Origin: Dehalococcoidia bacterium
GTDB taxonomy: Bacteria > Chloroflexota > Dehalococcoidia > Lucifugimonadales > UBA3495
Assembly: GCA_965237595.1 (NCBI GenBank)
Contig: CBDEFY010000006.1
Location: 168,671 to 232,670, forward strand
Length of the DNA stretch: 64,000 bases
Direction of reading: 5' to 3'
Made by a program: the position numbers and the translations under genes. Positions 11,452-41,977 of the stretch are shown one piece after another. The notes beneath the pieces were generated by a model. That model was not told where the DNA came from. It made no database searches and saw only the letters and a list, made by a program, of their open reading frames with translations. Each line of letters opens with the position of its first letter. The first letter of the stretch is position 1.

Positions 11452-11465
11452 TGAGGTGGACCCAA

Positions 11466-16521: not shown

Positions 16522-16542
16522 GCCGGGAGCGGCGGCAGGACG

Positions 16543-17463: not shown

Positions 17464-17480
17464 TTGGGTCCACCTCATAT

Positions 17481-29830: not shown

Positions 29831-30895
29831 ATGGGCGAGATTCTAGGAGCCGGCATCACTCATTACCCGCCGCTAATCATCCCGGACGAGGACCGGGCCT
29901 TCCCACTGACCCGCACCCTGCAGCACAATGACAAGGTCCCCGAGGAGATGAAGATTCCCACGAACTGGCCCGTGCCCATGCGGGTGGAGTACGGCGAAGA
30001 CGAAGGCTTTAAGTCGGCCCAGAAACACCGCGAACGGCTGCTCAAAGGGTTCCTGGAGATACGCACGGCCATTGACGACTTCAGTCCCGATGTCATTCTC
30101 ATCTGGGGCGACGACCAGTACGAGAACTTCAAAGAGGACATCATCCCGGCCTTCTGCGTGCTGGCTTACGACCAGTTCGAGGGAGCTCCCTTCAACAACC
30201 GCGACGGCAGTTACCGCCGCAACGTGTGGGACGAGCCCCAAGAAAAGACCTTCGTGTACCAGGGGGCTCCTCAGGCGGGCCGTGCCCTGGCCGGCGGTCT
30301 GATCGATGAGGGCTTCGACATTGCCTATGCCTACCAGCCCCTCCACGAAAAAGGCCTGGGCCACGCCTTCCTGAACACCCTGCTGTACTTGGACTACGAC
30401 CGAAAGGGCTTCGACCTTCCTGTCTTGCCCATAGCCGTGAACTGCTACGGCAGCAGCGTAATCCGCAACCGGGGTGGCGCCATCACCCAGAAAGTAAATG
30501 GCGTCGAACTGCCCTTCGACCCTCCAGGCCCTTCGCCCAAGCGGTGTATGGAGCTTGGCGCCGCCACCGCCAGGGTGCTGAAAGACAGCCCGTACCGGGT
30601 AGCCTTGGTGGCTTCATCTAGTTGGTCCCACGCCTTCCTCACCCCCAAGAACCATTACCTGTGGCCCGACATGGATTCGGACCGCAGCCGCTTCGAGGAA
30701 CTGCGCGACGGGGACTACGGCGCCTGGAAACGGATCTCCACCGACCAGATAGAGGACGCCGGCCAGCAGGAGTTGTTGAACTGGATGTGCCTGGCCGGGG
30801 CCATGCAGGAGATGGGCCGGAAGCCCGAGATTTTGGACTATGTGGAAACCTACGTCTTCAACTCCAACAAATGCCTGGCGCTGTTCCAGCCGTAG
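29831..30895 (+). CDS. LigB-family (class III) extradiol ring-cleavage dioxygenase-like protein, paralog 1
   Basis: ILIWGDDQYENF..GLGHAFLNTLLYL..SSSWSHAF pattern. Strongly similar to 33332-34393. Confidence 0.6.
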   Translation: MGEILGAGITHYPPLIIPDEDRAFPLTRTLQHNDKVPEEMKIPTNWPVPMRVEYGEDEGFKSAQKHRERLLKGFLEIRTAIDDFSPDVILIWGDDQYENFKEDIIPAFCVLAYDQFEGAPFNNRDGSYRRNVWDEPQEKTFVYQGAPQAGRALAGGLIDEGFDIAYAYQPLHEKGLGHAFLNTLLYLDYDRKGFDLPVLPIAVNCYGSSVIRNRGGAITQKVNGVELPFDPPGPSPKRCMELGAATARVLKDSPYRVALVASSSWSHAFLTPKNHYLWPDMDSDRSRFEELRDGDYGAWKRISTDQIEDAGQQELLNWMCLAGAMQEMGRKPEILDYVETYVFNSNKCLALFQP

Positions 30896-30910
30896 CATCG
30901 ACACAATGTC

Positions 30911-30935
30911 CCTTCCCCCGCATCGGGGGAAGGTT
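30911..30935. repeat. GC-rich hairpin repeat, copy 1 (left part; its remainder is at 33243-33274, split by the IS4-family transposon)
   Basis: CCTTCCCCCG-CAT-CGGGGGAAGG followed by TT. The same hairpin followed by TTAGG recurs at 50806 and 60004. Confidence 0.8.
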
Positions 30936-30953
30936 GGCTTTGCACCAAAAGTC

Positions 30954-31880
30954 TTATTCCCAGGACACTTTTGGAACAACTGGCTCTTCTGTTCCAAAAG
31001 TCTCGGTGTCAAATGCCGGCTCGATGCCCAATTCGAACATGCTCGAAACGAGCACGACGATATTATGACACAAGATTTTAGCCAGCACTTCGTTGACTTG
31101 GGCCACTGGCGTCTTGGAGCGAACCGCCCCACCGAACTTGGCCTTAATCATCGAAAACGTAGTCTCCACGTTGCTGCGCTTGTGATACCTAGCCGAAAAT
31201 TCGGCTCGGTTCAAGTTGTAGAAGTGGAAGGCCCGTTCCCACAGGCCGTCACGCTTATGATGGCCGCTGTGGGCCACGGAGTTGGTCTTGAAAGGGATGT
31301 AAGCTGTTCCGCCAACTGCCTGGACTTCTCGGAGGTTCTGCCTGCTCAGATAAGCCTTGTCGCCGGAGACTTCATTGACCGTGAAGTTCTGCGCGGTGGT
31401 TTTAACGAACGGAGCCAGGTAGGGCGAGTCCGCGCTCATGGTGGTGGTCGCTTCACACGAAGTGATGATATTCGTGGAAACACCGCACATTACATGTACC
31501 TTGACCCACTGGGCTTCCTTAATCATCTTGGCCCATTTGTTGTCGAACCACCGGTGGTAGACGGATGTAGCAAAGCCGCTGGAGTCAACGGCAAAGTCTG
31601 TTTCCACAGACTTGAGCGGAAGTGCACTCTGTTCAATCAGGGATTTCAGCAAAGGGGCCAGGTCGGGATTCTCCAGATGCCGGAATGTGCTGGTGAACGA
31701 CGGGACGTTGTCCAAAAGTCCTTTGTCATGGGCGTTTCGGAAATCCGTCATCGCCCGTCTACCCGACATGGTGGAATAGACCTTAAGACCGATGCCAAAA
31801 ACTACGTCGGAGAGAGGGAGCCGGGGACGGCCAAAGGTTTGTGGCGGTTGCTCGATGGTATCGCAGAGATCACGAAGCAA
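30954..31880 (-). CDS. IS4-family DDE transposase (start uncertain; homology continues upstream to about 31960)
   Basis: DDE residues in FAVDSSGF, VSGDKAYL and NVETTF. The IS4 signature Y-(2)-R-(3)-E-(6)-K is seen in YHKRSNVETTFSMIK. The in-frame upstream sequence ..RKTYSQDWPAYNAAQTHEEERF has no canonical start codon. Confidence 0.8.
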   Translation of the reverse strand: MLRDLCDTIEQPPQTFGRPRLPLSDVVFGIGLKVYSTMSGRRAMTDFRNAHDKGLLDNVPSFTSTFRHLENPDLAPLLKSLIEQSALPLKSVETDFAVDSSGFATSVYHRWFDNKWAKMIKEAQWVKVHVMCGVSTNIITSCEATTTMSADSPYLAPFVKTTAQNFTVNEVSGDKAYLSRQNLREVQAVGGTAYIPFKTNSVAHSGHHKRDGLWERAFHFYNLNRAEFSARYHKRSNVETTFSMIKAKFGGAVRSKTPVAQVNEVLAKILCHNIVVLVSSMFELGIEPAFDTETFGTEEPVVPKVSWE

Positions 31881-32230
31881 AGCGACGAATCGTTCTTCTT
31901 CGTGCGTCTGTGCCGCGTTGTAAGCTGGCCAATCCTGGGAATAAGTCTTCCGTGGTTGGGGGAGTGTAGCCGTGGTACTATGAATGAGCGATAGTCATGG
32001 TGGAGTTACAGCCTCCATCTTGATTAGGGAGCGGCGGTGTTTCGGCACCGTTTGCTCCCGACGTGACTATATTATCGCCGATTTCAGCGAAAAAATCAAG
32101 CTGAATCGCGTCATTTCGGTGCCAATTAGGTGCGTGTTCTGGAGGATTTCGACGTACAGCGGCTCTGCTGCACATAAAATAGTTAACTCCCGCCGCCCTA
32201 TGGCGCAAGTCGTCGGGCTGCGTGGCGTTA

Positions 32231-32319
32231 TGGTGCCGAGGGCGGGGCTTGAACCCGCAAGGCGGAAAACCGCCGGTGGTTTTCAAGACCACTGCGTTTA
32301 CCAATTTCGCCACCCCGGC
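32231..32319 (-). tRNA. tRNA with anticodon UGA (Ser by anticodon) but tRNA-Leu-like body; encoded CCA
   Basis: GCCGGGG-TG-GCG-AAATTGGTAAA-CGC-A-GTGGT-CTTGAAA-ACCAC-CGGCGGTTTTCCGCCTT-GCGGG-TTCAAGC-CCCGC-CCTCGGC-A-CCA. Full class II cloverleaf with a long variable arm, A73 discriminator, and a Leu-type D arm (TGGCGAAATTGGTAAACGC). Confidence 0.85.
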
Positions 32320-32370
32320 ATGCATCAGCGGCGCGGTTATGTCTTTGCGGGCTGGCCGCGCCGTTTCTTA

Positions 32371-32826
32371 TCAAAAGGGCAGGTCATCAGCTTTGTACTC
32401 GAAGGTGTTACGAGCAATCTTTGTAAAACGGTCCGCACTGGAAAGGACCGTTCCGATAACCGCAAAGGGTTGTTTTACGCCAAGGTCAAGCCCCTGGCTG
32501 TGCAGTTCCTCAAGCACACACTGTACCTTAACCAATTCGTTGCTAGGCGGAAGGCGTCGCCAAACAGCCAGTGCAGCTTCAACTATCAATCTAGGGCGCT
32601 CGGACGTTTCAACAGTATCGAAATGTGGATCGTGGTTAAGGTCACTGGCCTCTACATTAGCGGTATCTTGCAGATAAGTACCAAGCGCAGTGATGGCCGA
32701 GAGCTGGTTTTTCAGCCTATCGAACTCGGCGTCTATCTCTTGCAACAGTTCACCGCCAAGGTCGTAAGCTGCTTGCTCACCCTCCATAGTCCAGGTGTTC
32801 ATCATTTCCTTTACATAGTCACGCAT
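32371..32826 (-). CDS. hypothetical protein (151 aa), transposon cargo
   Basis: Lower-GC ORF inside the transposon. No recognisable motif. Confidence 0.4.
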   Translation of the reverse strand: MRDYVKEMMNTWTMEGEQAAYDLGGELLQEIDAEFDRLKNQLSAITALGTYLQDTANVEASDLNHDPHFDTVETSERPRLIVEAALAVWRRLPPSNELVKVQCVLEELHSQGLDLGVKQPFAVIGTVLSSADRFTKIARNTFEYKADDLPF

Positions 32827-32909
32827 GTGTCATATCTCCGCACTGATAGTTACAGTACCCAGTGCCAACTGCGTGAGTATACTACATTACTGTCAGTAGT
32901 ATCACCACT

Positions 32910-33113
32910 ATGATAAGAGAGTACGTCTACACGATCCAAGAGGCAGCAGATGTTCTTGCGGTCAATCGGGAGACAGTGAGGCGGTGGATGGTGGCCGGAA
33001 AACTCGCAGGAGAGAATATTGGTGGTGCCGTGCTATTGCCTCGGTGGGCCGTTGAAATGATTAAGCAAGAACGACAAACGAGAAGCCAAAAGCAACGCCG
33101 GGGTAAGAAATAA
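32910..33113 (+). CDS. helix-turn-helix DNA-binding protein, excisionase/MerR-like family
   Basis: YTIQEAADVLAVNRETVRRWMVAGKL is a typical excisionase-family HTH. Basic C-terminal tail. Confidence 0.6.
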   Translation: MIREYVYTIQEAADVLAVNRETVRRWMVAGKLAGENIGGAVLLPRWAVEMIKQERQTRSQKQRRGKK

Positions 33114-33331
33114 CGTGGCTCTTACTTTTGATTCAACATGGACTTTAGGTGCAAAGCCCGTGGGAGATATAAAGTAGGGGTTCGTGACCTTTTGGAACAA
33201 CCGACCGACTTTAGGAACAGATGCTACTTATGGAGCAAAGCCGGGGAAGGTTAGGATGGGGGCCACCCCTCACCTAAGCCGTCTCAGAGCAGGAACCAAA
33301 ATCCAAAAATTCCTACCTTCGGAGCAATAAA

Positions 33332-34393
33332 ATGGCAGAGATACTAGGAGTCGGCGTAACCCACTCCCCTTCGCTCATCACGCCCGATGAGCTGAAGCAG
33401 TACTCCCTCACCAGGGCGTTAAACGGCAACGACCGCATCCCGTCCGAGCAAAAGGACCCAGAGTCCTGGCCCGAGGCCATGCGCGCCGAGTGGGGGGACG
33501 ACCAAGGGTACACCTCCGCCAAGTACCAGCGTGAGAAGCTGGCCGATGGATTCCGAAAGGTGCGGGCCGAGATCGACGCCTTCAAGCCCGACGTGGTCTT
33601 GGTCTGGGGCGACGACCAATACGAGAACTTCAAAGAGGACATCATCCCTGCCTTCTGCATCCTGGCCTACGATTCATTCGAGGCCCAGCCCATGTCGGGC
33701 CGGGACGGCGGCCAGCGCCCCAACGTCTGGGACGAGCCCGCCGACAAGATTTTCCGATATAAAGGCCACGAGGCCAGCCGCTATCTGGCCGGCGCGCTCT
33801 TAGAAGACGGCTTCGACATCGCCTACGCCTACGAGCCCCTCCACGAGCCGGGCCTGGGCCACGCGTTCTTGAACACCCTGCTCTACCTGGACTATGACCG
33901 CAAGGGCTTCGACTATCCGGTGATCCCATTTGCCGTGAACTGCTACGGCAGCAGCATCATCCGCAACCGTGGCGGGGCCATCACCCAGACGATTAACGGT
34001 GTCGATCTACCTTTGGACCCGCCCGGTCCATCGCCCAAACGGTGCATGGAACTCGGCGCGGCCACGGCCCGGGCACTCCAAGCCAGCCCTTGGCGGGTGG
34101 CCCTGATAGCGTCGTCCAGTTGGTCCCACGCTTTCCTAACCCCCAAGAACTGGTGGCTCTACCCCGACGTGGAGTCGGACTTAGCCCGTTTCGAGGAACT
34201 TAAGGCTGGGAACTACGAGGCTTGGCGCAACATCACCAATAGGCAGATCGAGGACGCCGGCCAACAGGAGATGCTGAACTGGATGTGTCTGGCCGGGGCC
34301 ATGTCCGAGTTGAACCGCCCGCCGGAGATAATCGAGTTCCTGCAGACCTACATCTTCAATTCCAGCAAGTGCCTGGCGGTGATGAAGCCGTAG
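33332..34393 (+). CDS. LigB-family (class III) extradiol ring-cleavage dioxygenase-like protein, paralog 2
   Basis: Collinear with 29831-30895 over its full length, with the same conserved blocks (VWGDDQYENF, GLGHAFLNTLLYLDYDRKGFD, SSSWSHAFLTPKN). Confidence 0.6.
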   Translation: MAEILGVGVTHSPSLITPDELKQYSLTRALNGNDRIPSEQKDPESWPEAMRAEWGDDQGYTSAKYQREKLADGFRKVRAEIDAFKPDVVLVWGDDQYENFKEDIIPAFCILAYDSFEAQPMSGRDGGQRPNVWDEPADKIFRYKGHEASRYLAGALLEDGFDIAYAYEPLHEPGLGHAFLNTLLYLDYDRKGFDYPVIPFAVNCYGSSIIRNRGGAITQTINGVDLPLDPPGPSPKRCMELGAATARALQASPWRVALIASSSWSHAFLTPKNWWLYPDVESDLARFEELKAGNYEAWRNITNRQIEDAGQQEMLNWMCLAGAMSELNRPPEIIEFLQTYIFNSSKCLAVMKP

Positions 34394-34448
34394 CAGGGGA
34401 TAGCTCCCTAGACCGTCCAGTTCCGGCCCAGACGGCGGTGAACTAAGC

Positions 34449-34664
34449 GTGGAAGAAGGCTATGGGGAATACAGCTACACTCTGGTTCGGTGGCTACTTG
34501 TTACCGTCTTCAACAAGGCCGCGGCTCTTTTTCGGTCGGTAATCAAGAACCATTCACTTATGGGTGGCAACAAGAGATTGGCCCTGACCTCCGTCGCGGT
34601 GTTCTTGAACCTCAATGAATATCTCCCAGATAATCCGGCCAGCCAAGCGGTCCACCTAAACTAA
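34449..34664 (+). pseudogene. Doc (Fic/DOC family) toxin-like fragment with degenerate active-site motif
   Basis: ..AAALFRSVIKNHSLMGGNKRLALTSVAVFLNLNEY. The HxFx(D/N)GNKR motif is degenerate (HSLMGGNKR), and the N-terminal half is missing or unrelated. Confidence 0.5.
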
Positions 34665-34791
34665 CCAGAACGCTCGAGCAGCGAGATGGATTAGTAGAGG
34701 TCTACGCTCGACTTAACTTTTGAACCTGCTACAAAGAAATAGAGCCTGGAAAAATTAAACCCTTAAAATCAGCGTCCGGAGGAGCGGAAAG

Positions 34792-35037
34792 GTGAAAACC
34801 TACATGTTCCGTGTCGTAGTGGAACCCGACGATGACCGGTGGGTTGTGTACTGTCCAGCTTTGGAAAAATACGCGGCCACCACATGGGGCAACACTAGAG
34901 AGGAAGCCCTGCAGCACATCCAAGAAGTAATACATATGGTGCTCCAGGAATTAGTGGACGATCAAGAAGCAATCCCAGAGGAACCTTTGGAAGAAGTCAT
35001 TGTTACTTCTGAGCCCCGAGTGGCAGTCACCATCTGA
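34792..35037 (+). CDS. HicB-family antitoxin-like protein (UPF0150), orphan
   Basis: YMFRVVVEPDDDRWVVYCPALEKYAATTWGNTREEALQHIQEVIHMVLQ is a typical HicB N-terminal domain. GTG start with GGAGGAG upstream. No hicA is visible, and IS3 copy D begins 11 nt downstream. Confidence 0.7.
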   Translation: MKTYMFRVVVEPDDDRWVVYCPALEKYAATTWGNTREEALQHIQEVIHMVLQELVDDQEAIPEEPLEEVIVTSEPRVAVTI

Positions 35038-35061
35038 TCTATCACGGTGAGGTGGACCCAA

Positions 35062-36008
35062 TTAGTTGGACAGGTTTGGTGCAAAACTAAGTGGGAGTTC
35101 CGCCGTCTTTCCAAGGTCTGAGAACGCTCCGTTCGGTGCCCGTTTCCCATTGATTGACCGTTCATCTGATGGCGCCAAGTCTCCTTTGAACACCTCAGCC
35201 GGTGTCCGGTAGCCCAAGGCCTGGTGGGGTCTTTGGTTGTTGTAGAAGCTGAAGTATGCGTCAAGCCCGGCCTTGGCTTCTCGCCCGTTGGAGTAGGCTT
35301 TCAGGTAGACCTCCTCGTACTTAACCGTGCGCCACAGCCGCTCCAACAAGATGTTGTCGGTGTAGCGTCCCTTCCCGTCCATGCTGATTCTCACTCCGTG
35401 CTGCTCTAGGAGACCGGTAAAGGCTTCGCCGGTGAACTGGCTGCCCTGGTCGGTGTTGAAGACCTCTGGCTTCCCCTTGCCAAGCGCTTCCTCCAATGTC
35501 TCGACACAGAAATCAGCATCCAAGGTGTTGGAAAGACGCCAGGCCACCACGTACCGCGTGTACCAATCCATGATGGCCACCAGGTATAAGAAACCCTTGG
35601 CCATGGGGATGTAGGTGATGTCGGCGGCCCACACCTGATTTGGTCTGGTGATCTCCATGCCGCTCAGGAGGTAGGGATACACCTTGTGCCCTGGCCCCGG
35701 CTTGCTGGTCCGGGGCCACCGGTAGATGGCACGTAGTCCCATGGTCCGCATCAGACACGCTGGACCCGCTTCCGGTTCACCCTGTGACCTTGAGTGCCCA
35801 GCCAGACCCTCATGCGCCGCGACCCGTAGAAGGGGGTACTTAGGTACTGGTGGTCCATCGCCTTCATCACGGTCAGGTTCTCCGAGCAAGTCCCCTTGCG
35901 CCGGTAGTTTAGGCTGGACCTGCTGATGCTCAGTAAGGCGCACTGTCTCACTGTGGACAAGGCTGGGTGCCGCCGGTCCACCATCTCCCGCCGCCGCTCC
36001 CGGCTCAT
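35062..36008 (-). pseudogene. IS3 OrfB (copy D), frameshifted
   Basis: The N-terminal 85 codons (35751-36008) and the remaining DDE core are in different frames because of the 2-nt insertion. Confidence 0.85.
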
Positions 36009-36307
36009 GGACCGAGCCTCTCCGCCAAGAAATCCCGCTCAACCTTCAGTTGGCCGATCTGCTGATAGAGCCGGGCAACAAGGACCCCATCGCTCTTCTG
36101 GCGTTTGTCTTGGTTCCCACCAAAGACGCCGACCGCTCCTTCCAACAAGGACTTCTTCCAGGCCTGGATCTGCCCGGGATGGACCTCGTAGCGGGCGGCC
36201 AGTTGGGCCACCGTCTCTTCACCCTTCACCGCTTCCAGGGCCACCTTGGCCTTGAATGTTGGGCTGTGCTTCCTCCGCTCTTTTGACATGTCCCACTCCT
36301 CCCTCAC
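36005..36307 (-). CDS. IS3-family transposase OrfA (copy D)
   Basis: Intact 100-aa OrfA. Confidence 0.85.
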
Positions 36308-36460
36308 AGCAACAGCTGTGGCTATTTTAGGAGCAGAACTCTCACTTAACCACCTGTCCGAATTTCCGGGTCCACCTCAGTCTTCCAAGAAGAAAGCTCA
36401 TCAGAACGGCGCCGCCGATAATCGAAACGCACGGGACACTTACAAGTACCACCTTAGAGA

Positions 36461-38142
36461 TGAGCCTGTCTCAGAAGTCTGAACTGGCCATGGGTATGTC
36501 GTTGGGTGTATTTTCGAGGCGACATAAATTGGGGAGATGTTGAGATGCCGTTTCGAGAGATGGGCCGAGAGCAGATATGGATGTTGCCGCCGACGCTTGA
36601 CGAACTGTTGCCGTTGGACCATCCAGCGCGATTCGTGGCCGAGTTCGTTGACGCTTTGGACCGGGAGGACTGGGCGGAGCTTGGGGTAAAGATAGACGGG
36701 GAGGTGCTGGGAACGCCAGCCTACCATCCACGTGCGCTGTTGAGCGTGTGGCTGTACGGCTTCATGACCGGGGTGCGCTCGTGCCGGAAGCTGGAGGCGG
36801 CCTGCCGGGACCAGATACCATACCTGTGGCTGACCGGGTGGCAGCATCCTGACCACAACACCCTGTGGAGGTTCTACAAAGGGCATCGGCAGGCCATGAG
36901 GAAGCTGTTCGAGCGGACGGTGCGTATGGCAGTGACGATGAAGTTGGTGGACCTGGCGGTTCAGGCGGTGGATGGTACGAAGGTGGTCGCCAACGCGTCG
37001 CTGAACAGGAGCTACGACGCCGAGGGACTGCGTGGTCTGTTGGAGCGGCTGGAGCGTGCGATAGCCGACCTTGAGGCTCAGAACGAAGCGGGAGAAGACA
37101 CTGCTGTTGCCCATCTGCCTGAGGAGTTGGCTGACAAGGAGGTCTTGAGAGAGCAGGTGAGGCAGGCGATGGACGATCTCACGAGTCAGAAGCGCCACAA
37201 GCGCATCAACCTGACCGACCCAGACGCCAGGCTGATGAAGGGTAGGCAAGGCATCGTGGCTGGCTACAACGCTCAGGCTATGGTCTCACCCACAGAGACG
37301 GATGGGGGAGCGACCGGCATGTTGGTCACCGCCGTGGACGTGGTGGATGCAGCCAATGACAATGCCCTGCTGGTGCCGATGGTCGAGCAGGCCGAGGAGA
37401 CTATGGGGACGAAGTCGCAGATGACGTTGGCCGATGCCGGATACTTCGCCGCGAGTCACTTGGAAGAATGCGCCCGTCGAGATCAGCAGGTGGTAGTGTC
37501 GGAGTCGCGGCAACGGTTCCTCAAAGACCCATATCACAAGGACCGATTCACCTACGACGAGCAGAGCGACAGCTTTACGTGTCCGCAGGGACAGACGCTC
37601 AAGTTCGTTCGTATCCAACATACGCATGGAGTCCCGTTGCGTCTGTACCGGGCCTCCGGGGTCGTCTGCCAAGTGTGCCCAGCCTTCGGAGTCTGCACGA
37701 AGGCCAAAGAGATTGGGCGGAGCCTGGCGATAGGTCCGCATGACGCAGTGCTGCGCCGTCATCGTGCCTGGATGTCCACCTCAGCAGCTAGAGAGGCGTA
37801 CAAGCTGAGAAAGCAACTGGTCGAGCCTGTCTTCGGAATCATCAAGGAACAACAGGGGGCACGGAGATTCCTGCTGCGCGGCCTCGTTAACGTGGCGGCC
37901 GAGTGGACAATGCTGGCCACAGCCTTCAACCTGCGCACTCTCTGGCGGGTGTGGCGCTCAGCCCCTTCATCGGTCTATTTAATGGCCCGGAGCCTTGTCC
38001 CGTCTCCTGACCTGCAGTGATGACAGCAGCTGACCCATCGCTCCGTCGCCTGTCCTACCCGCTCAGGCCAGGGCCTTTCAGCGAACCCTTTGACCTCTAT
38101 CTGCTCCCCCTATCCGCAATTTCCACTTCTGGGACAGGCTCA
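36461..38142 (+). mobile_element. IS1182-family insertion sequence (1682 bp)
   Basis: 18-bp IR TGAGCCTGTCTCAGAAGT (36461-36478) versus reverse complement TGAGCCTGTCCCAGAAGT (38125-38142). Only a 2-bp GA duplication flanks it. It splits a GIY-YIG-like ORF that rejoins in frame. Confidence 0.8.
36545..38020 (+). CDS. IS1182-family DDE transposase
   Basis: LPPTLDELLPLDHPARFV..AYHPRALL.. is the DUF772-type N-terminus. DPDARLMKG, GYNAQAMV, LADAGY. C-terminal VEPVFGIIKEQQGARRFLLRGLVNVAAEW. Confidence 0.85.
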   Translation: MPFREMGREQIWMLPPTLDELLPLDHPARFVAEFVDALDREDWAELGVKIDGEVLGTPAYHPRALLSVWLYGFMTGVRSCRKLEAACRDQIPYLWLTGWQHPDHNTLWRFYKGHRQAMRKLFERTVRMAVTMKLVDLAVQAVDGTKVVANASLNRSYDAEGLRGLLERLERAIADLEAQNEAGEDTAVAHLPEELADKEVLREQVRQAMDDLTSQKRHKRINLTDPDARLMKGRQGIVAGYNAQAMVSPTETDGGATGMLVTAVDVVDAANDNALLVPMVEQAEETMGTKSQMTLADAGYFAASHLEECARRDQQVVVSESRQRFLKDPYHKDRFTYDEQSDSFTCPQGQTLKFVRIQHTHGVPLRLYRASGVVCQVCPAFGVCTKAKEIGRSLAIGPHDAVLRRHRAWMSTSAAREAYKLRKQLVEPVFGIIKEQQGARRFLLRGLVNVAAEWTMLATAFNLRTLWRVWRSAPSSVYLMARSLVPSPDLQ

Positions 38143-38310
38143 GATGTGAACAAAGTGATATTTCGTGGCGTCACTGACAACCTAGAACGGCGGGAGAAAG
38201 AACACCAAAAGACCTCGCCTGGCTCTCACATCGTGCAAGTTGGCCGCAGGACAACCAAGGCCGCCGCTCTAAGATGGGAGAAAGCGGTCACGTCCCGTCA
38301 AGTGGTGTAA
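38143..38310 (+). pseudogene. GIY-YIG nuclease-like small protein remnant (other piece at 36381-36460), hemmed in by IS3-D, IS1182 and IS256
   Basis: The rejoined sequence ..DTYKYHLRDVNKVIFRGVTDNLERREKEHQ.. resembles the GIY-YIG (YxY..G.T.NL.RR..EH) core. The 5' end is lost at the IS3-D junction, and the stop codon lies inside the IS256 IR. Confidence 0.5.
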
Positions 38311-39632
38311 GAGTGCGGCATCCTGTTGATGTTGTTTAGGTGGGTGTCGCCTCCGCGAGATCGGCCTCTGGAAGAGCTTCGTTGAAGGTCAGCACGACAG
38401 GTGTGATGTATCGACGGCCAACGGCCCATTCGTCGTGCTGCTCAGCCAGGACGGCGCCAACGAGGCGGCGCACGGCCGGCCGGTTAGGGAAGATGCCCAC
38501 CACATCGGTGCGTCGCCGGATCTCCTTGTTGAGACGCTCCTGTGGGTTGTTGGACCAGACCTTCTTCCAGTGGGCGAGTGGGAAGTTGGAGAAGGCCAGG
38601 AAGTCGGGTCCGGCCTCGTCCAGTAGAGAGGCGACCTGAGGGAACCGGTCCTGGAGTTGATCGGTCACCCTGTCGAGCTGGGCGTGTACCTCATCGGGGG
38701 AGGGTTGCTGGTAGATGGTGCGCACCATGGTGACTACCCATGGCTGGGCGCGCCTGGGGACCCGAGTGAGCAGGTTGGTCATGAAGTGGGTGCGGCACCG
38801 TTGCCAGCTGGCTCCGCCGAAGACTGCGGCGATGGCGCCTCGGAGTCCTTGATGAGCGTCCGATACCACCAGCTCCACCCCGCCGAGGCCCCTGGCGGAC
38901 AGCGAGCGTAGGAAGGCCAGCCAGAAGGCGCCGTCTTCACTCGTACCCACGTCCATCCCGATGATCTCCCGCTTGCCCTCGCCATTGACCGCCGTTGCCA
39001 CCACCACGCTGACGTTGACGATCCTGCCGGCCTCCCTGACCTTCTGGGTCAGTGCGTCCAGCCACAGGTAGGGGTAGGGTCCACCGCCCAGCGGACGGCC
39101 CATGAAGCCATCCACCACCACGTCCAGTTCCTGACAGATGCGCGACACCTGGCTCTTGGAGATACCCTCACACCCCAGGGCCTTGACCAGATCGTCCACC
39201 CGCCTTGTGGATACCCCTTCCACGTAGGCCTGCTGGATCACAGCCAGCAGAGCTCGCTCGCTGCGACGCCGTGGCTCCAGCAGGCTCGGGAAGTAGCTCC
39301 CTTCTCTGAGCTTCGGGATGTGCAGATCCATCGTCCCTACACGGGTATCCCACGCCCGGGACCGATACCCGTTGTGCTGGGTCACCCGCTCAGGGCTGCG
39401 TTCTCCATACTCAGCACCGATCCTCGATGACACCTCCGCATCCATGATCCCCTCTACCAGCACTCTCAGTGCCTCCCGTAGGAAGTCCACGTCGCGCAAT
39501 AGCTCCAGCAGGTCCATCCTTTCCTTGACCACTGTTGTCCTCCTTTCTCGAGCTTTCTTCTTTGCCCGCTAAGGATGACGCGGTGGTCTCTCTTTCTCCA
39601 GACCCTCTCCCTCTTACACCACTTCCTGGGAC
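38292..39632 (-). mobile_element. IS256-family insertion sequence (about 1341 bp; boundaries approximate, no TSD found)
   Basis: Imperfect IR GTCCCgtcAAGTGGTGTAAGAG (38292-38313) versus reverse complement GTCCCaggAAGTGGTGTAAGAG (39611-39632). The flanking 8-9-mers do not match. Confidence 0.65.
38336..39532 (-). CDS. IS256-family (Mutator-like) transposase
   Basis: RSRAWDTRVGTMDLHIPKLREGSYFPSLLEPRRR..YLWLDALTQKVRE..VSDAHQGLRGAI..WQRCRTHFMTNLL..NPQERLNKEIRRRT. Confidence 0.9.
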   Translation of the reverse strand: MVKERMDLLELLRDVDFLREALRVLVEGIMDAEVSSRIGAEYGERSPERVTQHNGYRSRAWDTRVGTMDLHIPKLREGSYFPSLLEPRRRSERALLAVIQQAYVEGVSTRRVDDLVKALGCEGISKSQVSRICQELDVVVDGFMGRPLGGGPYPYLWLDALTQKVREAGRIVNVSVVVATAVNGEGKREIIGMDVGTSEDGAFWLAFLRSLSARGLGGVELVVSDAHQGLRGAIAAVFGGASWQRCRTHFMTNLLTRVPRRAQPWVVTMVRTIYQQPSPDEVHAQLDRVTDQLQDRFPQVASLLDEAGPDFLAFSNFPLAHWKKVWSNNPQERLNKEIRRRTDVVGIFPNRPAVRRLVGAVLAEQHDEWAVGRRYITPVVLTFNEALPEADLAEATPT

Positions 39633-39769
39633 TCTACTACACCCGGCTGGTTCTCCAAGCGGTTGGGACGTACGGAGGGCTACCAAACGGGCTATTGGAA
39701 TGAACCGAGAAGCCCTGAAGGAGTTGGGGCGTCACTAGACGTAGCTACCGATTCCTCACTGCATATGAA

Positions 39770-40150
39770 GTGGAATCGGTAATTTTTGACCTGGCGTCCG
39801 AGGTTTACGCGGATTACCCTGACCCGATGCCCGCCTTTCAATACTTCGGCGGCGACTACGGCAGGGGCTTCTCGAATCCGCTCTTAGCGCGCCCGCGCAA
39901 ACGTATCAGGGCCGCTGGCTACGTCGAACCATCTTCGACAAAGCCGCAGATCTTTTTCGCTCGATAATCAAGAACCAATCTCTTGTCGATGGCAACAAGA
40001 GATTGGCCCTCACCTCCGTCGCGGTGTTCTTGAACCTCAATGGATATCTTCTAAATGTCCCAACCAACCAAGCGGTCGAATTCTCACTACAAAGTAGCCG
40101 CAACTCCAGGAAATTTCGATTTGGCGGAAATTTCCAGGTGGATTAGGTGA
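39770..40150 (+). pseudogene. Doc (Fic/DOC family) toxin-like pseudogene with at least two frameshifts
   Basis: Pieces lie in three frames: ..GGDYGRGFSNPLLARP.., ..IFDKAADLFRSIIKNQSLVDGNKRLALTSVAVFLNLNGY.., ..KVAATPGNFDLAEISRWIR*. About 150 bp is a close paralog of 34510-34660. Confidence 0.6.
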
Positions 40151-40251
40151 TATTCTGATCGGAGTTAACTCAACTCCGCGAGACCCTCTAATTCTGCCCG
40201 GGGTTGGCAATTCATCGTAGACTACGTTGGCTCCACCATACCTCTCAGTCA

Positions 40252-40959
40252 CTACCCAGCTACCCCAATAAACAGCCACGACCCGTACCCGCCCTCGTTG
40301 GGCGGCAGGGGCCGCAGTTCCACGGAGAACCCCGCCGCTTCCATGAGGCTGGTCCAGGTGTTGATGGCGAATAGACCCGTTACATGGGTGTCTACCTCCA
40401 CCGTGACTTTGCCGCTCCTCTTGATGGTGTAGGTGTAGGTCGATTCCACCTGGGTGTCCGATGGGTCCGGATCCACCATGACCTCTTCAATCTTGACCTC
40501 CATGTCGCCCCGCTGCCGGTCCCAGGTGTAGACCCATCCGTCGGGGAAGGTCTCCTCAACCCAGTCGGGGGCCACCATCAACACACCGCGGGGCCGCAGG
40601 TGGCACGCCGCCGTCTCAAATGTCCCTTGTAGGTCTTGCTCGGTCAGCAGATAGGAGGCCGCGTCGTGGATCAACACGGCGTCGAAGGTCTGCCCCAGAC
40701 GCACGTTTCGCATGTCTCCCAGGTGGTGTTCTATTCCTGGGTTGAGACCCTGGGATAGCGCCAGCATGTCCGGCGACAGGTCCACGGCGGTGCATCCAAA
40801 ATCTGCGGTCAGATGAGAAAGGGTGTGGCCGCCGCCTACCCCCAACTCCAGCAACCTGTGCCGTCCTGGTCCCAGCTTCTCCCGGATGGCGTCACGAAAA
40901 TGACCGGCCTCGCTGGCGTACTCTTCGGGCGGACTGATGATTGGCCAGAGATAGGCCAA
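40252..40959 (-). CDS. class I SAM-dependent methyltransferase
   Basis: RLLELGVGGGHTLSHL (motif I), AVDLSPDML, FDAVLIHDA. Confidence 0.7.
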   Translation of the reverse strand: MAYLWPIISPPEEYASEAGHFRDAIREKLGPGRHRLLELGVGGGHTLSHLTADFGCTAVDLSPDMLALSQGLNPGIEHHLGDMRNVRLGQTFDAVLIHDAASYLLTEQDLQGTFETAACHLRPRGVLMVAPDWVEETFPDGWVYTWDRQRGDMEVKIEEVMVDPDPSDTQVESTYTYTIKRSGKVTVEVDTHVTGLFAINTWTSLMEAAGFSVELRPLPPNEGGYGSWLFIGVAG

Positions 40960-41018
40960 TTCATAATAGAGTCGGATGGTTCTTGCCCCCGGACGGATTT
41001 AGCCTATATGGAGTCAAC

Positions 41019-41372
41019 TTATTGGGGTGTGAGGCCATCCAGCAGCCGGAGGACCGCGTCGCCGACGGTAAAGAAACTGAACCCCGCTTGAACGGCCACA
41101 CGGCGGTCTGTCTCGGTGTCGCCAACGTGGAAATACTCCTCGGCTGGGAACTGTTCTTTGACCTCATTAAGCCGGTGCTTCAGGACCGTGAACTCCACCG
41201 CGATGCCGTGGTCCTGCCAGATGCGCTGCTGTTCGCTCACGGTGCGGTCGGAGCAACTGCCAATCAGGTAGCCCAGGCTCTTCGCCTGCCGCACCATCTC
41301 CATGGTTATACCGCCGGGCGGGTCGCCCACCTCGAGTGTCCCGTCGATGTCGAAACTGATTAGTTTGGCCAA
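41019..41372 (-). CDS. small HAD-superfamily hydrolase
   Basis: LISFDIDGTL is HAD motif I (DxDGT); VGDTETD is motif IV. Confidence 0.65.
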   Translation of the reverse strand: MAKLISFDIDGTLEVGDPPGGITMEMVRQAKSLGYLIGSCSDRTVSEQQRIWQDHGIAVEFTVLKHRLNEVKEQFPAEEYFHVGDTETDRRVAVQAGFSFFTVGDAVLRLLDGLTPQ

Positions 41373-41385
41373 TTGCCCGCCCCGG

Positions 41386-41429
41386 TTTAGCCCGCGTCTG
41401 TTTTACCCGCGTTTGTTTACCCGCGTTTG
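41386..41429. repeat. tandem repeat, about 14-bp unit (TTTACCCGCGTTTG x2 plus a degenerate third copy)
   Basis: tttagcccgcgtctgt / tttacccgcgtttg / tttacccgcgtttg, filling the 58-bp spacer between the HAD gene start and the upstream DUF35 gene stop. Confidence 0.85.
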
Positions 41430-41430
41430 T

Positions 41431-41934
41431 TTAAATGGAGTGCTGCCAGGTTTCGCCCTGGGGCGGTTCGCCAGACAACTTGAACTGGGGGATGCTGATG
41501 CCGTCCGGCTCGTCGTCGAAGATTACCTCCACCCGCTTGCCGATGGCCACATTCTCCTCTTTCTCCGGCTTTAGGTCGCCGTCCAGCAGATTGGCGGTGA
41601 TTCGGAGGCCGTCGTCAGGAGTGGGCTGGCCGCTCTGTTCGTCCAGTTCCACCAGCACGATGGCAAAGGGGGCCATGTCACGGAAACTGGGAATAACGGT
41701 GTGGGCGACTACCTGATAGCTATAGATGGTCCCCTTGCCGCTCACTTCCTGCCAGTCCCATTCCAGGGAGGGACACCAGGGGCAGCCGGGCCCGGGTTCG
41801 CCGCGCAGCAGACCGCAGGCGCGGCATTTCTTGACCACCAGCTTGTGCTCGGCGGCGGCCTCGAAGTAGCCGCGGTACTCGCTGTCGTTGTCGGGAATAT
41901 CCAGGCGTTGGCCCCTATATTCGTAAACAGCCAT
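41431..41934 (-). CDS. Zn-ribbon/OB-fold protein (DUF35 family), thiolase partner
   Basis: CRACGLL..CPWCPS rubredoxin-like ribbon followed by GKGTIYSYQVV..PFAIVLVELDE OB fold. GAGGAGG upstream of MAVYEY. It sits directly downstream of an SCP-x-type thiolase. Confidence 0.75.
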   Translation of the reverse strand: MAVYEYRGQRLDIPDNDSEYRGYFEAAAEHKLVVKKCRACGLLRGEPGPGCPWCPSLEWDWQEVSGKGTIYSYQVVAHTVIPSFRDMAPFAIVLVELDEQSGQPTPDDGLRITANLLDGDLKPEKEENVAIGKRVEVIFDDEPDGISIPQFKLSGEPPQGETWQHSI

Positions 41935-41977
41935 GACAGCTACCTCCTCATCCAATCTTCGTACACTGCCATAACGG

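What the first reader, a model, noticed from the sequence alone, without database searches (positions are those of the whole stretch)
32231..32319. Transposon-borne tRNA with a tRNA-Leu body and a serine (UGA) anticodon
The cloverleaf is complete and well paired, with an encoded CCA.
- The D arm (TGGCGAAATTGGTAAACGC), the GCC.../...GGC acceptor stem and the A73 discriminator are hallmarks of bacterial tRNA-Leu.
- Bacterial tRNA-Ser typically starts GGAGAG/GGTGAG, has a GCCGAG-type D loop and has G73.
- The anticodon loop CTTGAAA differs from a Leu(UAA) loop CTTAAAA by a single A35-to-G change.

Bacterial LeuRS does not read the anticodon. Such a tRNA could therefore be charged with Leu and read UCA (Ser) codons, making it a mobile mistranslating or recoding tRNA. 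It could equally be a decaying tRNA-Leu copy.
Basis: partly seen in the sequence, partly recalled or inferred. Interest (0 to 1): 0.7.

Follow-up and report, generated by a model that had tools for sequence, protein, structure and literature searches.

The report
Mobile leucine-type tRNA reading serine codons
An intact tRNA gene built like a leucine tRNA but carrying a serine anticodon rides on an insertion sequence, and it belongs to a previously undescribed set of small-protein-plus-"mismatched tRNA" modules that could deliberately mistranslate the genetic code.

Summary
Window 32231-32319 (minus strand) encodes an 89-nt class II tRNA with a full cloverleaf, encoded CCA, anticodon UGA, and a leucine identity set (A73, C2-G71, A15:U48, A20a, Leu-type variable arm).

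Its nearest annotated relatives are all tRNA-Leu. It scores 50.7 bits on a Leu profile against 27.3 on a Ser profile.

It is mobile. A 2.36-kb unit (Xis-like HTH gene, 151-aa winged-helix ORF, hairpin, tRNA, DDE transposase, terminal inverted repeats) recurs at 99.8% identity in an unrelated genomic context.

It is not a one-off decayed copy. Homologues of the 151-aa ORF (Chloroflexota soil metagenomes) are followed about 50 nt downstream by other mismatched tRNAs:
- Leu bodies with UGG, UGC or CGC anticodons.
- Arg bodies with ACU or GCU.
- A Ser-like body with GCC.

An ORF 95% identical to the window's carries a completely different tRNA between conserved flanks.

Charging by LeuRS and Ser-to-Leu decoding are inferred, not shown. 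Some slots hold degenerate tRNAs or none.

The element's only UCA codon lies exactly at a +1 frameshift site in its transposase.

I found no prior description. I rate it a new variant of natural hybrid-identity tRNAs.

The parts
32231..32319 (-). 89-nt class II tRNA with a leucine-type body (A73, C2-G71, A15:U48, A20a), anticodon UGA and an encoded CCA
   Evidence: ARAGORN. Rfam tRNA at 58.3 bits. Alignment and pair counts against bona fide tRNA-Leu. Nearest annotated genes are all tRNA-Leu. Leu profile 50.7 bits against Ser profile 27.3 bits.
32329..32363 (-). Conserved hairpin or palindrome (GGCGCGG..CCGCGCC) between the ORF151 stop codon and the tRNA. Possible roles: an RNA 3'-end or processing hairpin, or an operator.
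   Evidence: A stable hairpin occupies the same place in every ORF151-family module that carries a slot tRNA or tRNA-like sequence. The sequences differ but the pairing is kept (alignment A2).
32371..32826 (-). ORF151, a 151-aa protein with an N-terminal helical hairpin, a C-terminal winged-helix domain and an acidic DDLPF tail (SSB-tip-like). It is the conserved partner gene of the tRNA slot.
   Evidence: No Pfam family. 55 homologues and 109 clusters at 50% identity. AlphaFold2 model at pLDDT 86.4. Only weak winged-helix fold matches. Alignment A1.
32910..33113 (+). 67-aa HTH_17 (Xis/MerR-like) gene, divergent from ORF151
   Evidence: ORF listing. 98.5% identical to the gene annotated PF12728 HTH_17 in L110. 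Also present in L001, L101 and L104.
30954..32175 (-). DDE_Tnp_1 (IS4/IS5-type) transposase gene. It is split by one extra C near 31983, giving CAU UCA UAG. A +1 shift after the UCA restores a 406-codon frame.
   Evidence: Pfam DDE_Tnp_1. tblastn with the single-ORF 397-aa L110 homologue matches in two frames. Nucleotide comparison and codon counts.
31981..31983 (-). The only TCA (UCA) codon in the element's three protein genes. It lies immediately before the 0-frame TAG at the frameshift site.
30936..30952 (+). Left terminal inverted repeat, GGCTTTGCACCAAAAGT
   Evidence: Pattern search: 4 matches against 0.31 expected by chance. Inverted-repeat pair I5.
33226..33242 (-). Right terminal inverted repeat, GGCTTTGCTCCATAAGT on the minus strand. 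A further copy lies at 33142-33158, with subterminal repeats nearby.
30908..33262 (.). The whole repeated (mobile) unit shared with an unrelated genomic context. GGGGAAGGTT lies directly outside both inverted repeats.
   Evidence: 99.8% identity to L001 9565-11920, with unrelated flanks. All 6 differences lie at 30920-30932.
32876..32905 (-). Sigma-70-like promoter match upstream of ORF151, the candidate promoter for an ORF151-tRNA transcript
   Evidence: Consensus scan, 9 of 12 positions. Two sites were found in the region against 0.9 expected, so this is weak evidence.

Best explanation
This is a real, structurally intact tRNA gene that an insertion-sequence-like element carries as cargo. 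It has the complete bacterial leucine identity set but the anticodon UGA.

It occupies a conserved 'tRNA slot' about 50 nt downstream of a small winged-helix protein gene (the ORF151 family, Chloroflexota). Homologous modules carry other tRNAs in that slot whose anticodon does not fit their body. Each anticodon is changed at positions that the cognate synthetase does not read:
- Leu bodies with UGG, UGC or CGC.
- Arg bodies with ACU or GCU, keeping C35 and U36.

**Most likely mechanism.**
1. The tRNA is transcribed with or just after ORF151.
2. RNase P releases it.
3. The host LeuRS, which is blind to the anticodon, charges it with leucine.
4. It competes with the host tRNA-Ser(UGA) at UCA (and by wobble UCG) codons, inserting Leu for Ser.
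5. The two small HTH proteins of the element probably keep expression low or conditional.

**Shown:** the tRNA's structure and identity features, its mobility, the family-wide protein-tRNA linkage, and the exchange of tRNAs between conserved flanks.

**Inferred:** transcription, charging, decoding and the biological role. The role could be conditional proteome-wide missense used for addiction, defence or stress response, and/or control of the element's own frameshifted transposase.
For: **1. Intact tRNA.**

**2. Leucine identity.**
- A73, C2-G71 (a published antideterminant against SerRS), A20a and a large variable region match the bacterial identity table in PMC9976931.
- The only E. coli matches, in 5302 genomes, are annotated tRNA-Leu. 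Annotated phage matches are tRNA-Leu as well.
- A Leu profile scores 50.7 bits against 27.3 for a Ser profile, even though the anticodon favours Ser.

**3. Mobility.**
- The same 2355-bp unit sits in a histidine-operon/aaRS context in L001 and in a LigB/IS context in the window.
- It has inverted repeats and a DDE transposase.

**4. Module pattern.** Of about 15 distinct ORF151-family loci, 9 have an intact tRNA 40-70 nt downstream on the same strand, and in all 9 the anticodon does not fit the body. Two more have degenerate tRNA-like sequences. The Arg bodies were confirmed by their nearest annotated E. coli genes.

**5. Anticodon switching on a conserved body.** L092 (UGG) and L108 (CGC) have identical acceptor, D, anticodon and T stems. 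They differ in the anticodon loop, the variable arm and one D-loop base, while their partner ORFs are only 56% and about 45% identical to the window's ORF151 and so diverged from each other. Compensatory stem changes occur among the module tRNAs.

**6. Cassette behaviour.** L110's ORF is 95% identical to the window's and the flanks are homologous, but the tRNA is a class I Arg-type with anticodon ACU.

**7. Not a lineage-wide Ser architecture.** Only about 15 intact Leu-D-arm/UGA tRNAs were found in 185,579 species representatives.

**8. Similar tRNAs on other mobile DNA.**
- Three alphaproteobacterial genomes carry a promoter, a Leu-body UGA tRNA and a small ORF. An IS1595 transposase lies directly upstream in two of them.
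- At least 10 viral contigs carry similar A73 class II tRNAs with NGN anticodons.
Against: - There is no expression, charging or proteomic evidence.
- Slots in L097-L100 and L111-L113 hold degenerate tRNA-like sequences, and L104, L117 and L106/L109 have none. The tRNA is therefore dispensable for the protein.
- Neighbouring ORFs neither avoid nor require the codons their tRNA would misread.
- Absence of TCA from ORF151 and the main transposase frame is not significant: about 2.8 expected, P about 0.05, and sister elements with other tRNAs also lack TCA.
- The only promoter evidence is a weak consensus match.
- The Ser training set for the profile test was small: 5 sequences, 4 of them from one phage.
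- The host's own tRNA set could not be retrieved.
- The transposase is frameshifted, so this copy could be a decaying element.
Confidence: 0.55

Rival explanations
1. The tRNA is a non-translational tRNA-like element. It would serve as an RNA processing or punctuation signal (an RNase P/Z site), or as a 3'-end stabiliser or insulator, between ORF151 and the downstream transposase. The anticodon would then be unconstrained and would simply have drifted.
For: - The tRNA always sits between the ORF and the next gene, preceded by a conserved hairpin.
- Degenerate tRNA-like versions persist in several samples (L097-L100, L111-L113).
- The anticodons look arbitrary.
- Neighbouring ORFs do not avoid the targeted codons.
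Against: - In 9 of 9 intact cases the anticodon is non-cognate. Drift from a captured cognate tRNA should leave many cognate ones.
- The changes fall exactly on positions the cognate synthetase ignores: A35 in Leu bodies and position 34 in Arg bodies, with C35 and U36 kept.
- Among the Leu-bodied tRNAs, seven-base anticodon loops with U33 and a purine at position 37, the anticodon stems, and G18, G19 and T54-C56 are all kept, with compensatory changes. Processing alone does not require these.
- The alphaproteobacterial versions have their own strong promoter directly upstream.
Confidence: 0.2
2. It is a decaying or neutral pseudogene copy of a host tRNA-Leu(UAA) that hitch-hiked into an IS and picked up an A35G mutation.
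For: - It is a single-base change away from a Leu(UAA) loop.
- Two real examples of decayed duplicates lie next to tRNA-Leu(UAA) genes in L017 and L021.
- The transposase in this copy is frameshifted.
- Some sister slots are degenerate.
Against: - Unlike L017 and L021, which have broken T arms or a truncated variable arm, every stem and conserved loop base is intact.
- The tRNA is identical in three assemblies and two genomic contexts.
- Sister modules carry different intact mismatched tRNAs, which a single accident does not explain.
Confidence: 0.1
3. It is a genuine serine tRNA with an unusual, Leu-like architecture, charged by SerRS. Decoding would then be normal and the element would merely supply an extra tRNA-Ser(UGA).
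For: - SerRS relies mainly on the long variable arm and ignores the anticodon (PMC9976931).
- C11-G24, G4-C69 and G30-C40 are present.
- A jumbo-phage contig (L123) has true G73 tRNA-Ser genes with the same D arm as its tRNA-Leu genes.
Against: - It has A73 rather than G73, and C2-G71, a documented antideterminant against E. coli SerRS.
- The variable arm is followed by two unpaired bases and sits with A15:U48, the Leu pattern.
- The Leu profile exceeds the Ser profile by 23 bits, even though the Ser set is dominated by the Leu-like phage Ser tRNAs.
- No E. coli tRNA-Ser is matched at all.
- Sister tRNAs with Pro and Ala anticodons cannot be explained this way.
Confidence: 0.07
4. It is a dedicated recoding tRNA for the element's own transposase. 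It would decode the unique UCA at CAU-UCA-UAG and promote the +1 frameshift needed to make full-length transposase, coupling transposition to tRNA expression.
For: - Relative to L110 (CAT TAT AGT), the window and L001 copies carry one extra C (CAT TCA TAG T).
- A +1 shift after the UCA gives an uninterrupted 406-codon frame collinear with L110.
- That UCA is the only TCA in the roughly 624 codons of the element's three genes.
- The frameshifted element exists in at least 2 contexts with no internal differences.
Against:
- The tRNA has a normal 7-base loop and U33 cannot pair with the fourth base, so quadruplet reading is not expected.
- There is no nearby Shine-Dalgarno-like stimulator.
- Sister elements L110 and L101 have unbroken transposase genes yet still carry odd tRNAs. 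Modules without any transposase also carry them. Recoding therefore cannot be the general function.
- The copies could have been mobilised in trans.
Confidence: 0.08

Closest known systems
Nematode nev-tRNAs (class II tRNAs with Gly or Ile anticodons, charged with leucine; PMC3333845, PMC4300185)
   Same: Both have a long-variable-arm, leucine-identity body combined with an anticodon for another amino acid. Both rely on LeuRS being blind to the anticodon.
   Different: nev-tRNAs are eukaryotic, nematode-specific chromosomal genes. This tRNA is bacterial (Chloroflexota-type host), sits on an insertion sequence, is tied to a partner protein gene, and carries the anticodons UGA, UGG, UGC or CGC across the family.
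Streptomyces tRNAProX with ProRSx (PMC10404621; review PMC11415595)
   Same: Both are bacterial, genome-encoded tRNAs whose body identity and anticodon disagree. tRNAProX has been shown to mistranslate.
   Different: Those tRNAs need a dedicated synthetase paralogue encoded beside them. No aaRS gene is present in this window or in most sister loci. Here the ordinary LeuRS or ArgRS should suffice, and the partner is a small winged-helix protein.
allo-tRNAs and irregular tRNA polycistrons of Acidobacteria (Mukai et al., PMC5389517)
   Same: Both are rare tRNAs from soil metagenomes with sense-codon anticodons that do not match their identity. Both are sometimes near transposon-related genes or toxin-antitoxin genes, and some members appear inactive.
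   Different: allo-tRNAs are defined by an 8/4 or 9/3 acceptor/T-stem geometry and serine identity. This tRNA has the canonical 7/5 geometry and leucine identity, and it belongs to a different gene neighbourhood.
Anticodon variants of human or yeast tRNA-Leu, tRNA-Ser and tRNA-Ala (PMC11028032, PMC10543346)
   Same: The principle is the same: a single anticodon substitution in a tRNA whose synthetase ignores the anticodon gives missense decoding.
   Different: Those are sporadic alleles of chromosomal genes. Here the mismatch recurs across a gene family and is mobile.
Insertion sequences with passenger genes (transporter IS) of the IS4/IS5 DDE_Tnp_1 type
   Same: The element has a DDE_Tnp_1 transposase, terminal inverted repeats, identical copies in different contexts, and extra genes inside the ends.
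   Different: The passengers are a tRNA and two small HTH proteins rather than resistance or metabolic genes. I found no report of an IS whose cargo is a tRNA.

Membership tests
Bacterial tRNA-Leu | Class II structure with a long variable arm | tested here: met
   The variable region is 17 nt with a 5-bp stem. It aligns with bona fide tRNA-Leu genes.
Bacterial tRNA-Leu | Discriminator A73 | tested here: met
   A73 lies before the encoded CCA. It is listed as the bacterial Leu determinant in PMC9976931.
Bacterial tRNA-Leu | Core and tertiary set: A15:U48, G18G19 placement, A20a | tested here: met
   The D loop reads A14 A15 U16 U17 G18 G19 U20 A20a A21, and U48 follows two unpaired bases after the variable stem.
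Bacterial tRNA-Leu | Leucine anticodon (NAA or NAG) | tested here: not met
   The anticodon is UGA.
Bacterial tRNA-Leu | Aminoacylated by LeuRS | not testable with these tools
   This needs in vitro charging or an acid-gel Northern blot.
Bacterial tRNA-Ser | Serine anticodon | tested here: met
   UGA reads UCA and UCG.
Bacterial tRNA-Ser | G73, with G2-C71 in the acceptor stem | tested here: not met
   The tRNA has A73 and C2-G71. C2-G71 is listed as an antideterminant against SerRS.
Bacterial tRNA-Ser | Overall sequence profile of tRNA-Ser | tested here: not met
   The Ser HMM scores 27.3 bits against 50.7 for the Leu HMM (the Ser set was small). There is no E. coli tRNA-Ser match.
allo-tRNA | 8/4 or 9/3 acceptor/T-stem configuration | tested here: not met
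   The acceptor stem is 7 bp and the T stem 5 bp. The definition is from PMC5389517.
nev-tRNA | Class II tRNA with an anticodon that is neither Leu nor Ser, specific to nematodes | tested here: not met
   This anticodon is a Ser anticodon and the host is bacterial. Sister tRNAs with Pro and Ala anticodons fit the first half of the definition only.
tRNAProX/ProRSx-type system | A dedicated synthetase paralogue encoded next to the tRNA | tested here: not met
   No aaRS domain was found in the neighbouring genes or among 28 scanned window ORFs.
IS4/IS5-type insertion sequence with passenger genes | DDE_Tnp_1 transposase | tested here: met
   Pfam PF01609, E = 8e-17. The gene is homologous over its full length to the 397-aa L110 transposase, but is frameshifted.
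IS4/IS5-type insertion sequence with passenger genes | Terminal inverted repeats | tested here: met
   The ends at 30936-30952 and 33226-33242 match at 15 of 17 positions (88% complementary). The motif is enriched, with 4 matches against 0.31 expected.
IS4/IS5-type insertion sequence with passenger genes | Target-site duplication | tested here: inconclusive
   GGGGAAGGTT flanks both inverted repeats. However, about 20-28 nt outside the repeats are also shared between the two contexts, so this may be a repeated target sequence or part of the unit.
IS4/IS5-type insertion sequence with passenger genes | Identical copies in different genomic contexts | tested here: met
   The window and L001 copies are 99.8% identical over 2355 bp, with unrelated flanks.
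Programmed +1 ribosomal frameshift | A sense codon followed by a 0-frame stop, with a collinear +1 frame | tested here: inconclusive
   CAU UCA UAG U is followed by an open +1 frame of about 340 codons. No stimulatory element was found, and frameshifting itself was not tested.

The most novel reading that the evidence does not exclude
The tRNA is one interchangeable cassette of an undescribed class of mobile 'missense tRNA' modules. Each module pairs a small winged-helix protein (with an SSB-tip-like DDLPF tail) with a tRNA engineered by evolution to keep its synthetase identity (Leu, Arg, perhaps Ser) while reading codons for small residues (Ser, Pro, Ala, Gly).

Mobile elements would use controlled bursts of such mistranslation as a toxin, addiction or abortive-infection device, or as a stress response. 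In this particular IS, the tRNA would additionally gate synthesis of the transposase through the unique UCA at its +1 frameshift site.
Probability: 0.3. Interest if true: 0.9.

Novelty: new variant of a known kind. Interest (0 to 1): 0.8.

Why it matters
Natural tRNAs that deliberately break the codon table are very rare. Known cases are nematode nev-tRNAs, Streptomyces tRNAProX and acidobacterial allo-tRNAs.

This locus would add three things:
- A bacterial leucine-identity (and arginine-identity) version that needs no special synthetase.
- A version that moves on an insertion sequence, so the ability to mistranslate could spread horizontally.
- A conserved partner protein and a cassette-like slot in which tRNAs of different identity are exchanged.

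This gives a concrete, testable system for three questions: whether mobile elements use mistranslation as a weapon or a regulatory device, how cells tolerate such tRNAs, and whether a tRNA can control its own transposon through a recoding site. The tRNAs could also serve as natural starting points for genetic-code engineering.

Tried and rejected
1. **Plasmid searches.** A near-identity search with 4 kb around the tRNA found nothing. Protein searches with ORF151, the transposase and the alphaproteobacterial ORF also found nothing. The lineage is not represented there.

2. **GTDB pattern scan** (Leu D arm + N6 + CTTGAAA). Most of the 89 hits were not Ser-anticodon tRNAs. They were tRNA-Leu(UAA) genes interrupted after U34 by what looks like a group I intron. 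The exact window tRNA is absent from the species representatives, and none of those loci encodes an ORF151 homologue.

3. **JGI metagenome scan with the ORF151 alignment.** It gave only 3 loci. The family is almost confined to ENA long-read soil assemblies.

4. **Self-recoding hypothesis.** The idea was that the partner ORF needs the odd tRNA. It is rejected: the targeted codons sit at positions where the family consensus is the standard residue.

5. **Codon avoidance.** The result is not significant.

6. **Host codon reassignment (UCA = Leu).** There is no sign of it. TCA codons in window paralogue pairs align with Ser, Gln or Lys, never Leu.

7. **Function of ORF151.** No Pfam, PDB-fold or profile link was found beyond a generic winged helix and very weak HARE-HTH hits. 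There is no detectable homology to the alphaproteobacterial partner ORF.

9. **tRNAscan-SE isotype models.** They were not available. A crude Leu/Ser profile-HMM comparison was used instead.
Full report
**1. The observation**

ARAGORN finds exactly one tRNA in the 64-kb window, at 32231-32319 on the minus strand, with anticodon UGA. Rfam's tRNA model matches it end to end at 58.3 bits, against a gathering score of 29.

The RNA reads GCCGGGGUGGCGAAAUUGGUAAACGCAGUGGUCUUGAAAACCACCGGCGGUUUUCCGCCUUGCGGGUUCAAGCCCCGCCCUCGGCACCA. Its features are:
- a 7-bp acceptor stem with G5.U68
- U8
- a 3-bp D stem with an A13.A22 mismatch
- D loop AAUUGGUAA
- a 5-bp anticodon stem with loop CUUGAAA
- a 5-bp variable stem with a UUUU loop, followed by two unpaired U
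- T arm GCGGG-UUCAAGC-CCCGC
- A73 and an encoded CCA

The free minimum-energy fold is not a cloverleaf. When the tRNA is aligned with eleven class II tRNAs, 98.8% of cells pair in the cloverleaf, against 37-51% when the partners are slid. The description in the finding is therefore correct.

**2. Leucine or serine body?**

The published bacterial identity sets (Giege and Eriani, PMC9976931) list the following.
- For Leu: A73, tertiary interactions, A20a and the large variable region, with no anticodon element.
- For Ser: G73, C72, G2-C71, R4-Y69, C11-G24, the large variable region and G30-C40.
- C2-G71 of tRNA-Leu is an antideterminant against SerRS.
- G73 of tRNA-Ser is an antideterminant against LeuRS.

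The window tRNA has A73, C2-G71, A15 with U48, A20a and a Leu-type junction after the variable stem.

Similarity searches agree:
- BLAST against 5,426 complete E. coli genomes hits only genes annotated tRNA-Leu, in 5,302 genomes, and no tRNA-Ser.
- Annotated phage hits are tRNA-Leu.

They score the window tRNA at 50.7 bits (Leu) against 27.3 bits (Ser). All 14 Leu tRNAs classify correctly in leave-one-out.

Two caveats apply. The Ser set is small. The acceptor-end features are.

**3. No lineage uses this as its normal tRNA-Ser**

I scanned one genome from each of 185,579 species for a Leu-type D arm followed by CTTGAAA. The scan returned 89 loci.

Most are tRNA-Leu(UAA) genes interrupted after U34 by what looks like a group I intron. 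Only about 15 are intact tRNAs with a UGA anticodon, and they are scattered over several phyla. If any lineage used this architecture for its standard tRNA-Ser(UGA), that lineage would have appeared en masse.

**4. The tRNA is on a mobile unit**

The neighbouring 151-aa ORF occurs on other contigs. L002 is the same genome as the window (100% identity over 30855-42826).

L001 shares only window 30908-33262, at 99.8% identity. There the unit lies among histidine-biosynthesis, aaRS and biotin-ligase genes, rather than between LigB dioxygenase paralogues.

Read on the minus strand, the unit contains in order:
- the right inverted repeat (33242-33226)
- an HTH_17 gene on the opposite strand (32910-33113)
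- ORF151 (32826-32371)
- a hairpin
- the tRNA
- a DDE_Tnp_1 transposase (32175-30954)
- the left inverted repeat (30952-30936)

The motif GGGGAAGGTT abuts both repeats, but some further flanking sequence is also shared, so the exact ends are uncertain. All six differences between the two copies lie outside the left repeat. 'Transposon-borne' is therefore supported.

**5. The key new result: a protein-linked slot for mismatched tRNAs**

ORF151 has no Pfam family. It has 55 homologues down to 38% identity and 109 clusters at 50% identity among 1.84 billion proteins. A housekeeping neighbour, DnaJ of L102, places at least that host in the Chloroflexota.

Looking up the contigs of diverged homologues showed the same arrangement again and again: ORF, hairpin, then a tRNA 40-70 nt downstream on the same strand. 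In every intact case the tRNA's anticodon does not fit its body.

| Locus | ORF identity to window | tRNA body | Anticodon |
|---|---|---|---|
| window, L001 | 100% | Leu | UGA |
| L092 | 56% | Leu | UGG |
| L105 | 46% | Leu | UGC |
| L108, L114-116 | about 45% | Leu | CGC |
| L110 | 95% | class I, Arg-type | ACU |
| L102/103 | 61% | class I, Arg-type | GCU |
| L101 | 69% | class I | GCC |
| L093-096 | 50% | Ser-like, class II | GCC |

Other slots are less clear:
- L097-100 and L111-113 hold degenerate tRNA-like sequences.
- L104, L117 and L106/109 hold none.
- L107 has two tRNAs about 340-415 nt downstream of the ORF.

The Arg assignment rests on the nearest annotated E. coli genes and on A20, C35 and U36, the bacterial ArgRS determinants.

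The rule that emerges is this. Each anticodon is one or two substitutions away from a cognate anticodon for its body, and the substitutions fall at positions the cognate synthetase does not read. In Leu bodies that is position 35 (and 36). In Arg bodies it is position 34.

**6. Evidence of selection rather than decay**
- The Leu-bodied slot tRNAs keep every stem. Compensatory changes occur in the anticodon stem (GUGGU/ACCAC, GGGGA/UCCCC, GUGGA/UCCAC) and the T stem.
- L092 and L108 have identical stems. They differ in the anticodon loop, the variable arm and one D-loop base, while their partner proteins are only 56% and about 45% identical to the window's ORF151.
- Real decayed duplicates of tRNA-Leu(UAA), in L017 and L021, look different, with broken T arms and a truncated variable arm.
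- L110 shows cassette behaviour. Its ORF is 95% identical to the window's, and the hairpin and the downstream region are homologous. The tRNA between them is of a different class.

**7. What argues for caution**
- Nothing shows that the tRNA is transcribed, charged or used. The only promoter evidence is a weak consensus match upstream of ORF151.
- Several slots are degenerate or empty.
- The partner ORFs neither avoid nor depend on the targeted codons.
- TCA makes up about 8.6% of Ser codons in window ORFs. Its absence from ORF151 and the main transposase frame is only marginal.
- Host TCA codons align with Ser, Gln or Lys in paralogues, not Leu, so there is no sign of reassignment.
- ORF151's fold is a helical hairpin plus a generic winged helix (pLDDT 86). 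Its conserved C-terminal DDLPF/W resembles the SSB C-terminal tip (the resemblance is my own knowledge). Its role as a regulator is a guess.

**8. An unexpected link to the transposase**

Compared with the single 397-aa ORF of L110 (...CAT TAT AGT ACC...), the window and L001 copies have one extra C (...CAT TCA TAG TAC C...). The result is a 65-codon first frame that ends in TAG. A +1 frame then continues collinearly for about 340 codons.

The TCA at the junction is the only TCA in the element's three genes, about 624 codons in total. It is the codon the element's own tRNA reads. The frameshifted element is present in at least two contexts without internal differences.

This could be programmed recoding tied to the tRNA, or a plain inactivating mutation with mobilisation in trans. 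The tRNA's normal 7-base loop gives no obvious mechanism. I treat it as a lead.

**9. Wider occurrence**
- Three alphaproteobacterial genomes (Nitratireductor pacificus, Jiella pelagia and a Methylocystis MAG) carry a strong promoter followed by a Leu-body UGA tRNA and then a small ORF. In L057 and L085 this is a complete ORF of about 135 aa that reads like a coiled coil plus winged helix. In L050 only its first 14 codons lie within the locus.
- An IS1595 transposase lies directly upstream in two of them. A second, Arg-like GCU tRNA follows in Jiella.
- That ORF shows no detectable homology to ORF151.
- A scan of viral contigs found at least ten distinct A73 class II tRNAs with intact acceptor stems and NGN anticodons: UGA, UGG, AGG, UGC, GGC and UGU.

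Leu-type tRNAs with anticodons for Ser, Pro, Ala and Thr thus recur on mobile DNA.

**10. Comparison with what is known**
- In mode of action, the closest analogues are the nematode nev-tRNAs, which have a Leu-charged class II body with Gly or Ile anticodons (PMC3333845).
- Among bacterial precedents, the closest are tRNAProX with ProRSx (PMC10404621) and the allo-tRNAs (PMC5389517).

The membership tests fail for each. The geometry is 7/5 rather than 8/4 or 9/3. No dedicated synthetase is present. The host is not a nematode.

Searches of 8 million papers for allo-tRNA, mistranslating bacterial tRNAs, anticodon shifts and tRNA passengers in insertion sequences turned up no description of this module.

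**11. Verdict**

Function in translation remains inferred.

I rate it a new variant of the known kind 'natural hybrid-identity tRNA', and of high interest.

Noticed in passing
L003-L091 (for example L003 928-1030, L014, L034, L074): About 65 species representatives carry tRNA-Leu(UAA) genes interrupted right after U34 by what looks like a group I intron (CTT|GAAA..TTGAGC..GGAAAC..TCAAATTCGG). The taxa include Cupriavidus, Kerstersia, Methylibium, Achromobacter, Steroidobacteraceae, Sphingobium and Accumulibacter. This is the position of the classic cyanobacterial/plastid intron, but here it occurs in Proteobacteria.
   Followed up: no
L057 (rc 5725-6500), L085 2900-3600, L050 7780-8000: Alphaproteobacterial module. 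A consensus sigma-70 promoter is followed by a Leu-body tRNA with UGA anticodon and CCA, then a small ORF. In L057 and L085 this is a complete ~135-aa coiled-coil/winged-helix-looking ORF followed by a terminator. L050 is cut off 14 codons into its ORF. An IS1595 transposase lies directly upstream in L085 and L050. In Jiella, a second Arg-like tRNA (GCU) follows. An 18-20-nt copy of the tRNA's variable-arm region recurs after the ORF.
   Followed up: partly
L121, L124, L125, L128, L134, L139/141, L143, L148, L152/154, L158 (viral contigs): IMG/VR contigs carry class II, A73 tRNAs with intact acceptor stems and anticodons for Thr (UGU), Pro (UGG, AGG), Ala (UGC, GGC) and Ser (UGA). L144, L146 and L151 have a 4-base 'UGGA' loop.
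   Followed up: partly
L123 (505-kb viral contig): This jumbo-phage tRNA cluster has four G73 tRNA-Ser and four A73 tRNA-Leu genes that share the same Leu-like D arm. D-arm type alone therefore cannot assign isotype.
   Followed up: yes
L081 3784-3870, L089, L045 (Chloroflexia MAGs): Leu-type tRNAs with an eight-base anticodon loop, CUUGAAAA, identical in L081 and L089 (two Chloroflexia species representatives). L045 shares the CUUGAAAA string, but its 3' anticodon-stem strand does not pair.
   Followed up: no
window 31978-31986 (minus strand): One extra C relative to L110 turns CAT TAT AGT into CAT TCA TAG T. This is the element's only TCA codon, at a potential +1 frameshift site of its transposase. 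The same change is present in the L001 copy.
   Followed up: partly
window 32371-32388 (C-terminus of ORF151) and alignment A1: The ORF151 family ends in a conserved acidic DDLPF/DDLPW motif that resembles the C-terminal protein-interaction tip of bacterial SSB.
   Followed up: no
window 2208-3541, 11451-12755, 16147-17477, 35048-36380: Four copies (99.2-99.5% identical) of a 1.33-kb IS3-family element. The window also holds IS1595, IS256/Mutator and IS1182-like transposases, so this is an IS-saturated region.
   Followed up: partly
window 29831-30895 and 33332-34393: Two LigB-type extradiol dioxygenase paralogues (76.6% nucleotide identity) flank the tRNA-bearing element. Two Rieske dioxygenase paralogues lie at 54068-55471 and 57255-58772. 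Together they suggest a duplicated aromatic-catabolism island.
   Followed up: no
window 59801-59957: Rfam match to sX15, a Xanthomonadaceae sRNA family, at 59.1 bits against a gathering score of 55. This is odd for a host that is probably Chloroflexota. It lies just downstream of a Rieske dioxygenase gene.
   Followed up: no
L107 3773-3920: About 340 nt downstream of an ORF151 homologue, a promoter-like TATACT precedes two tandem class I tRNAs (anticodons CAU and GAA). The GAA tRNA has G37 and a U1-A72 acceptor pair, which is not a standard bacterial tRNA-Phe.
   Followed up: no
L084 4516-4560 and 5431-5515 (Gemmatimonadales): A 5' half of a tRNA-Leu, ending at CTT|GAAAGG, lies 900 nt upstream of an intact tRNA-Leu(UAA). 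That intact tRNA's acceptor and T arms closely resemble the window tRNA.
   Followed up: no
L109 (IMGVR_UViG_3300028835_001182) and L106: An ORF151-family homologue (51% identity) lies on a contig classed as viral. It has no tRNA in the downstream slot.
   Followed up: partly
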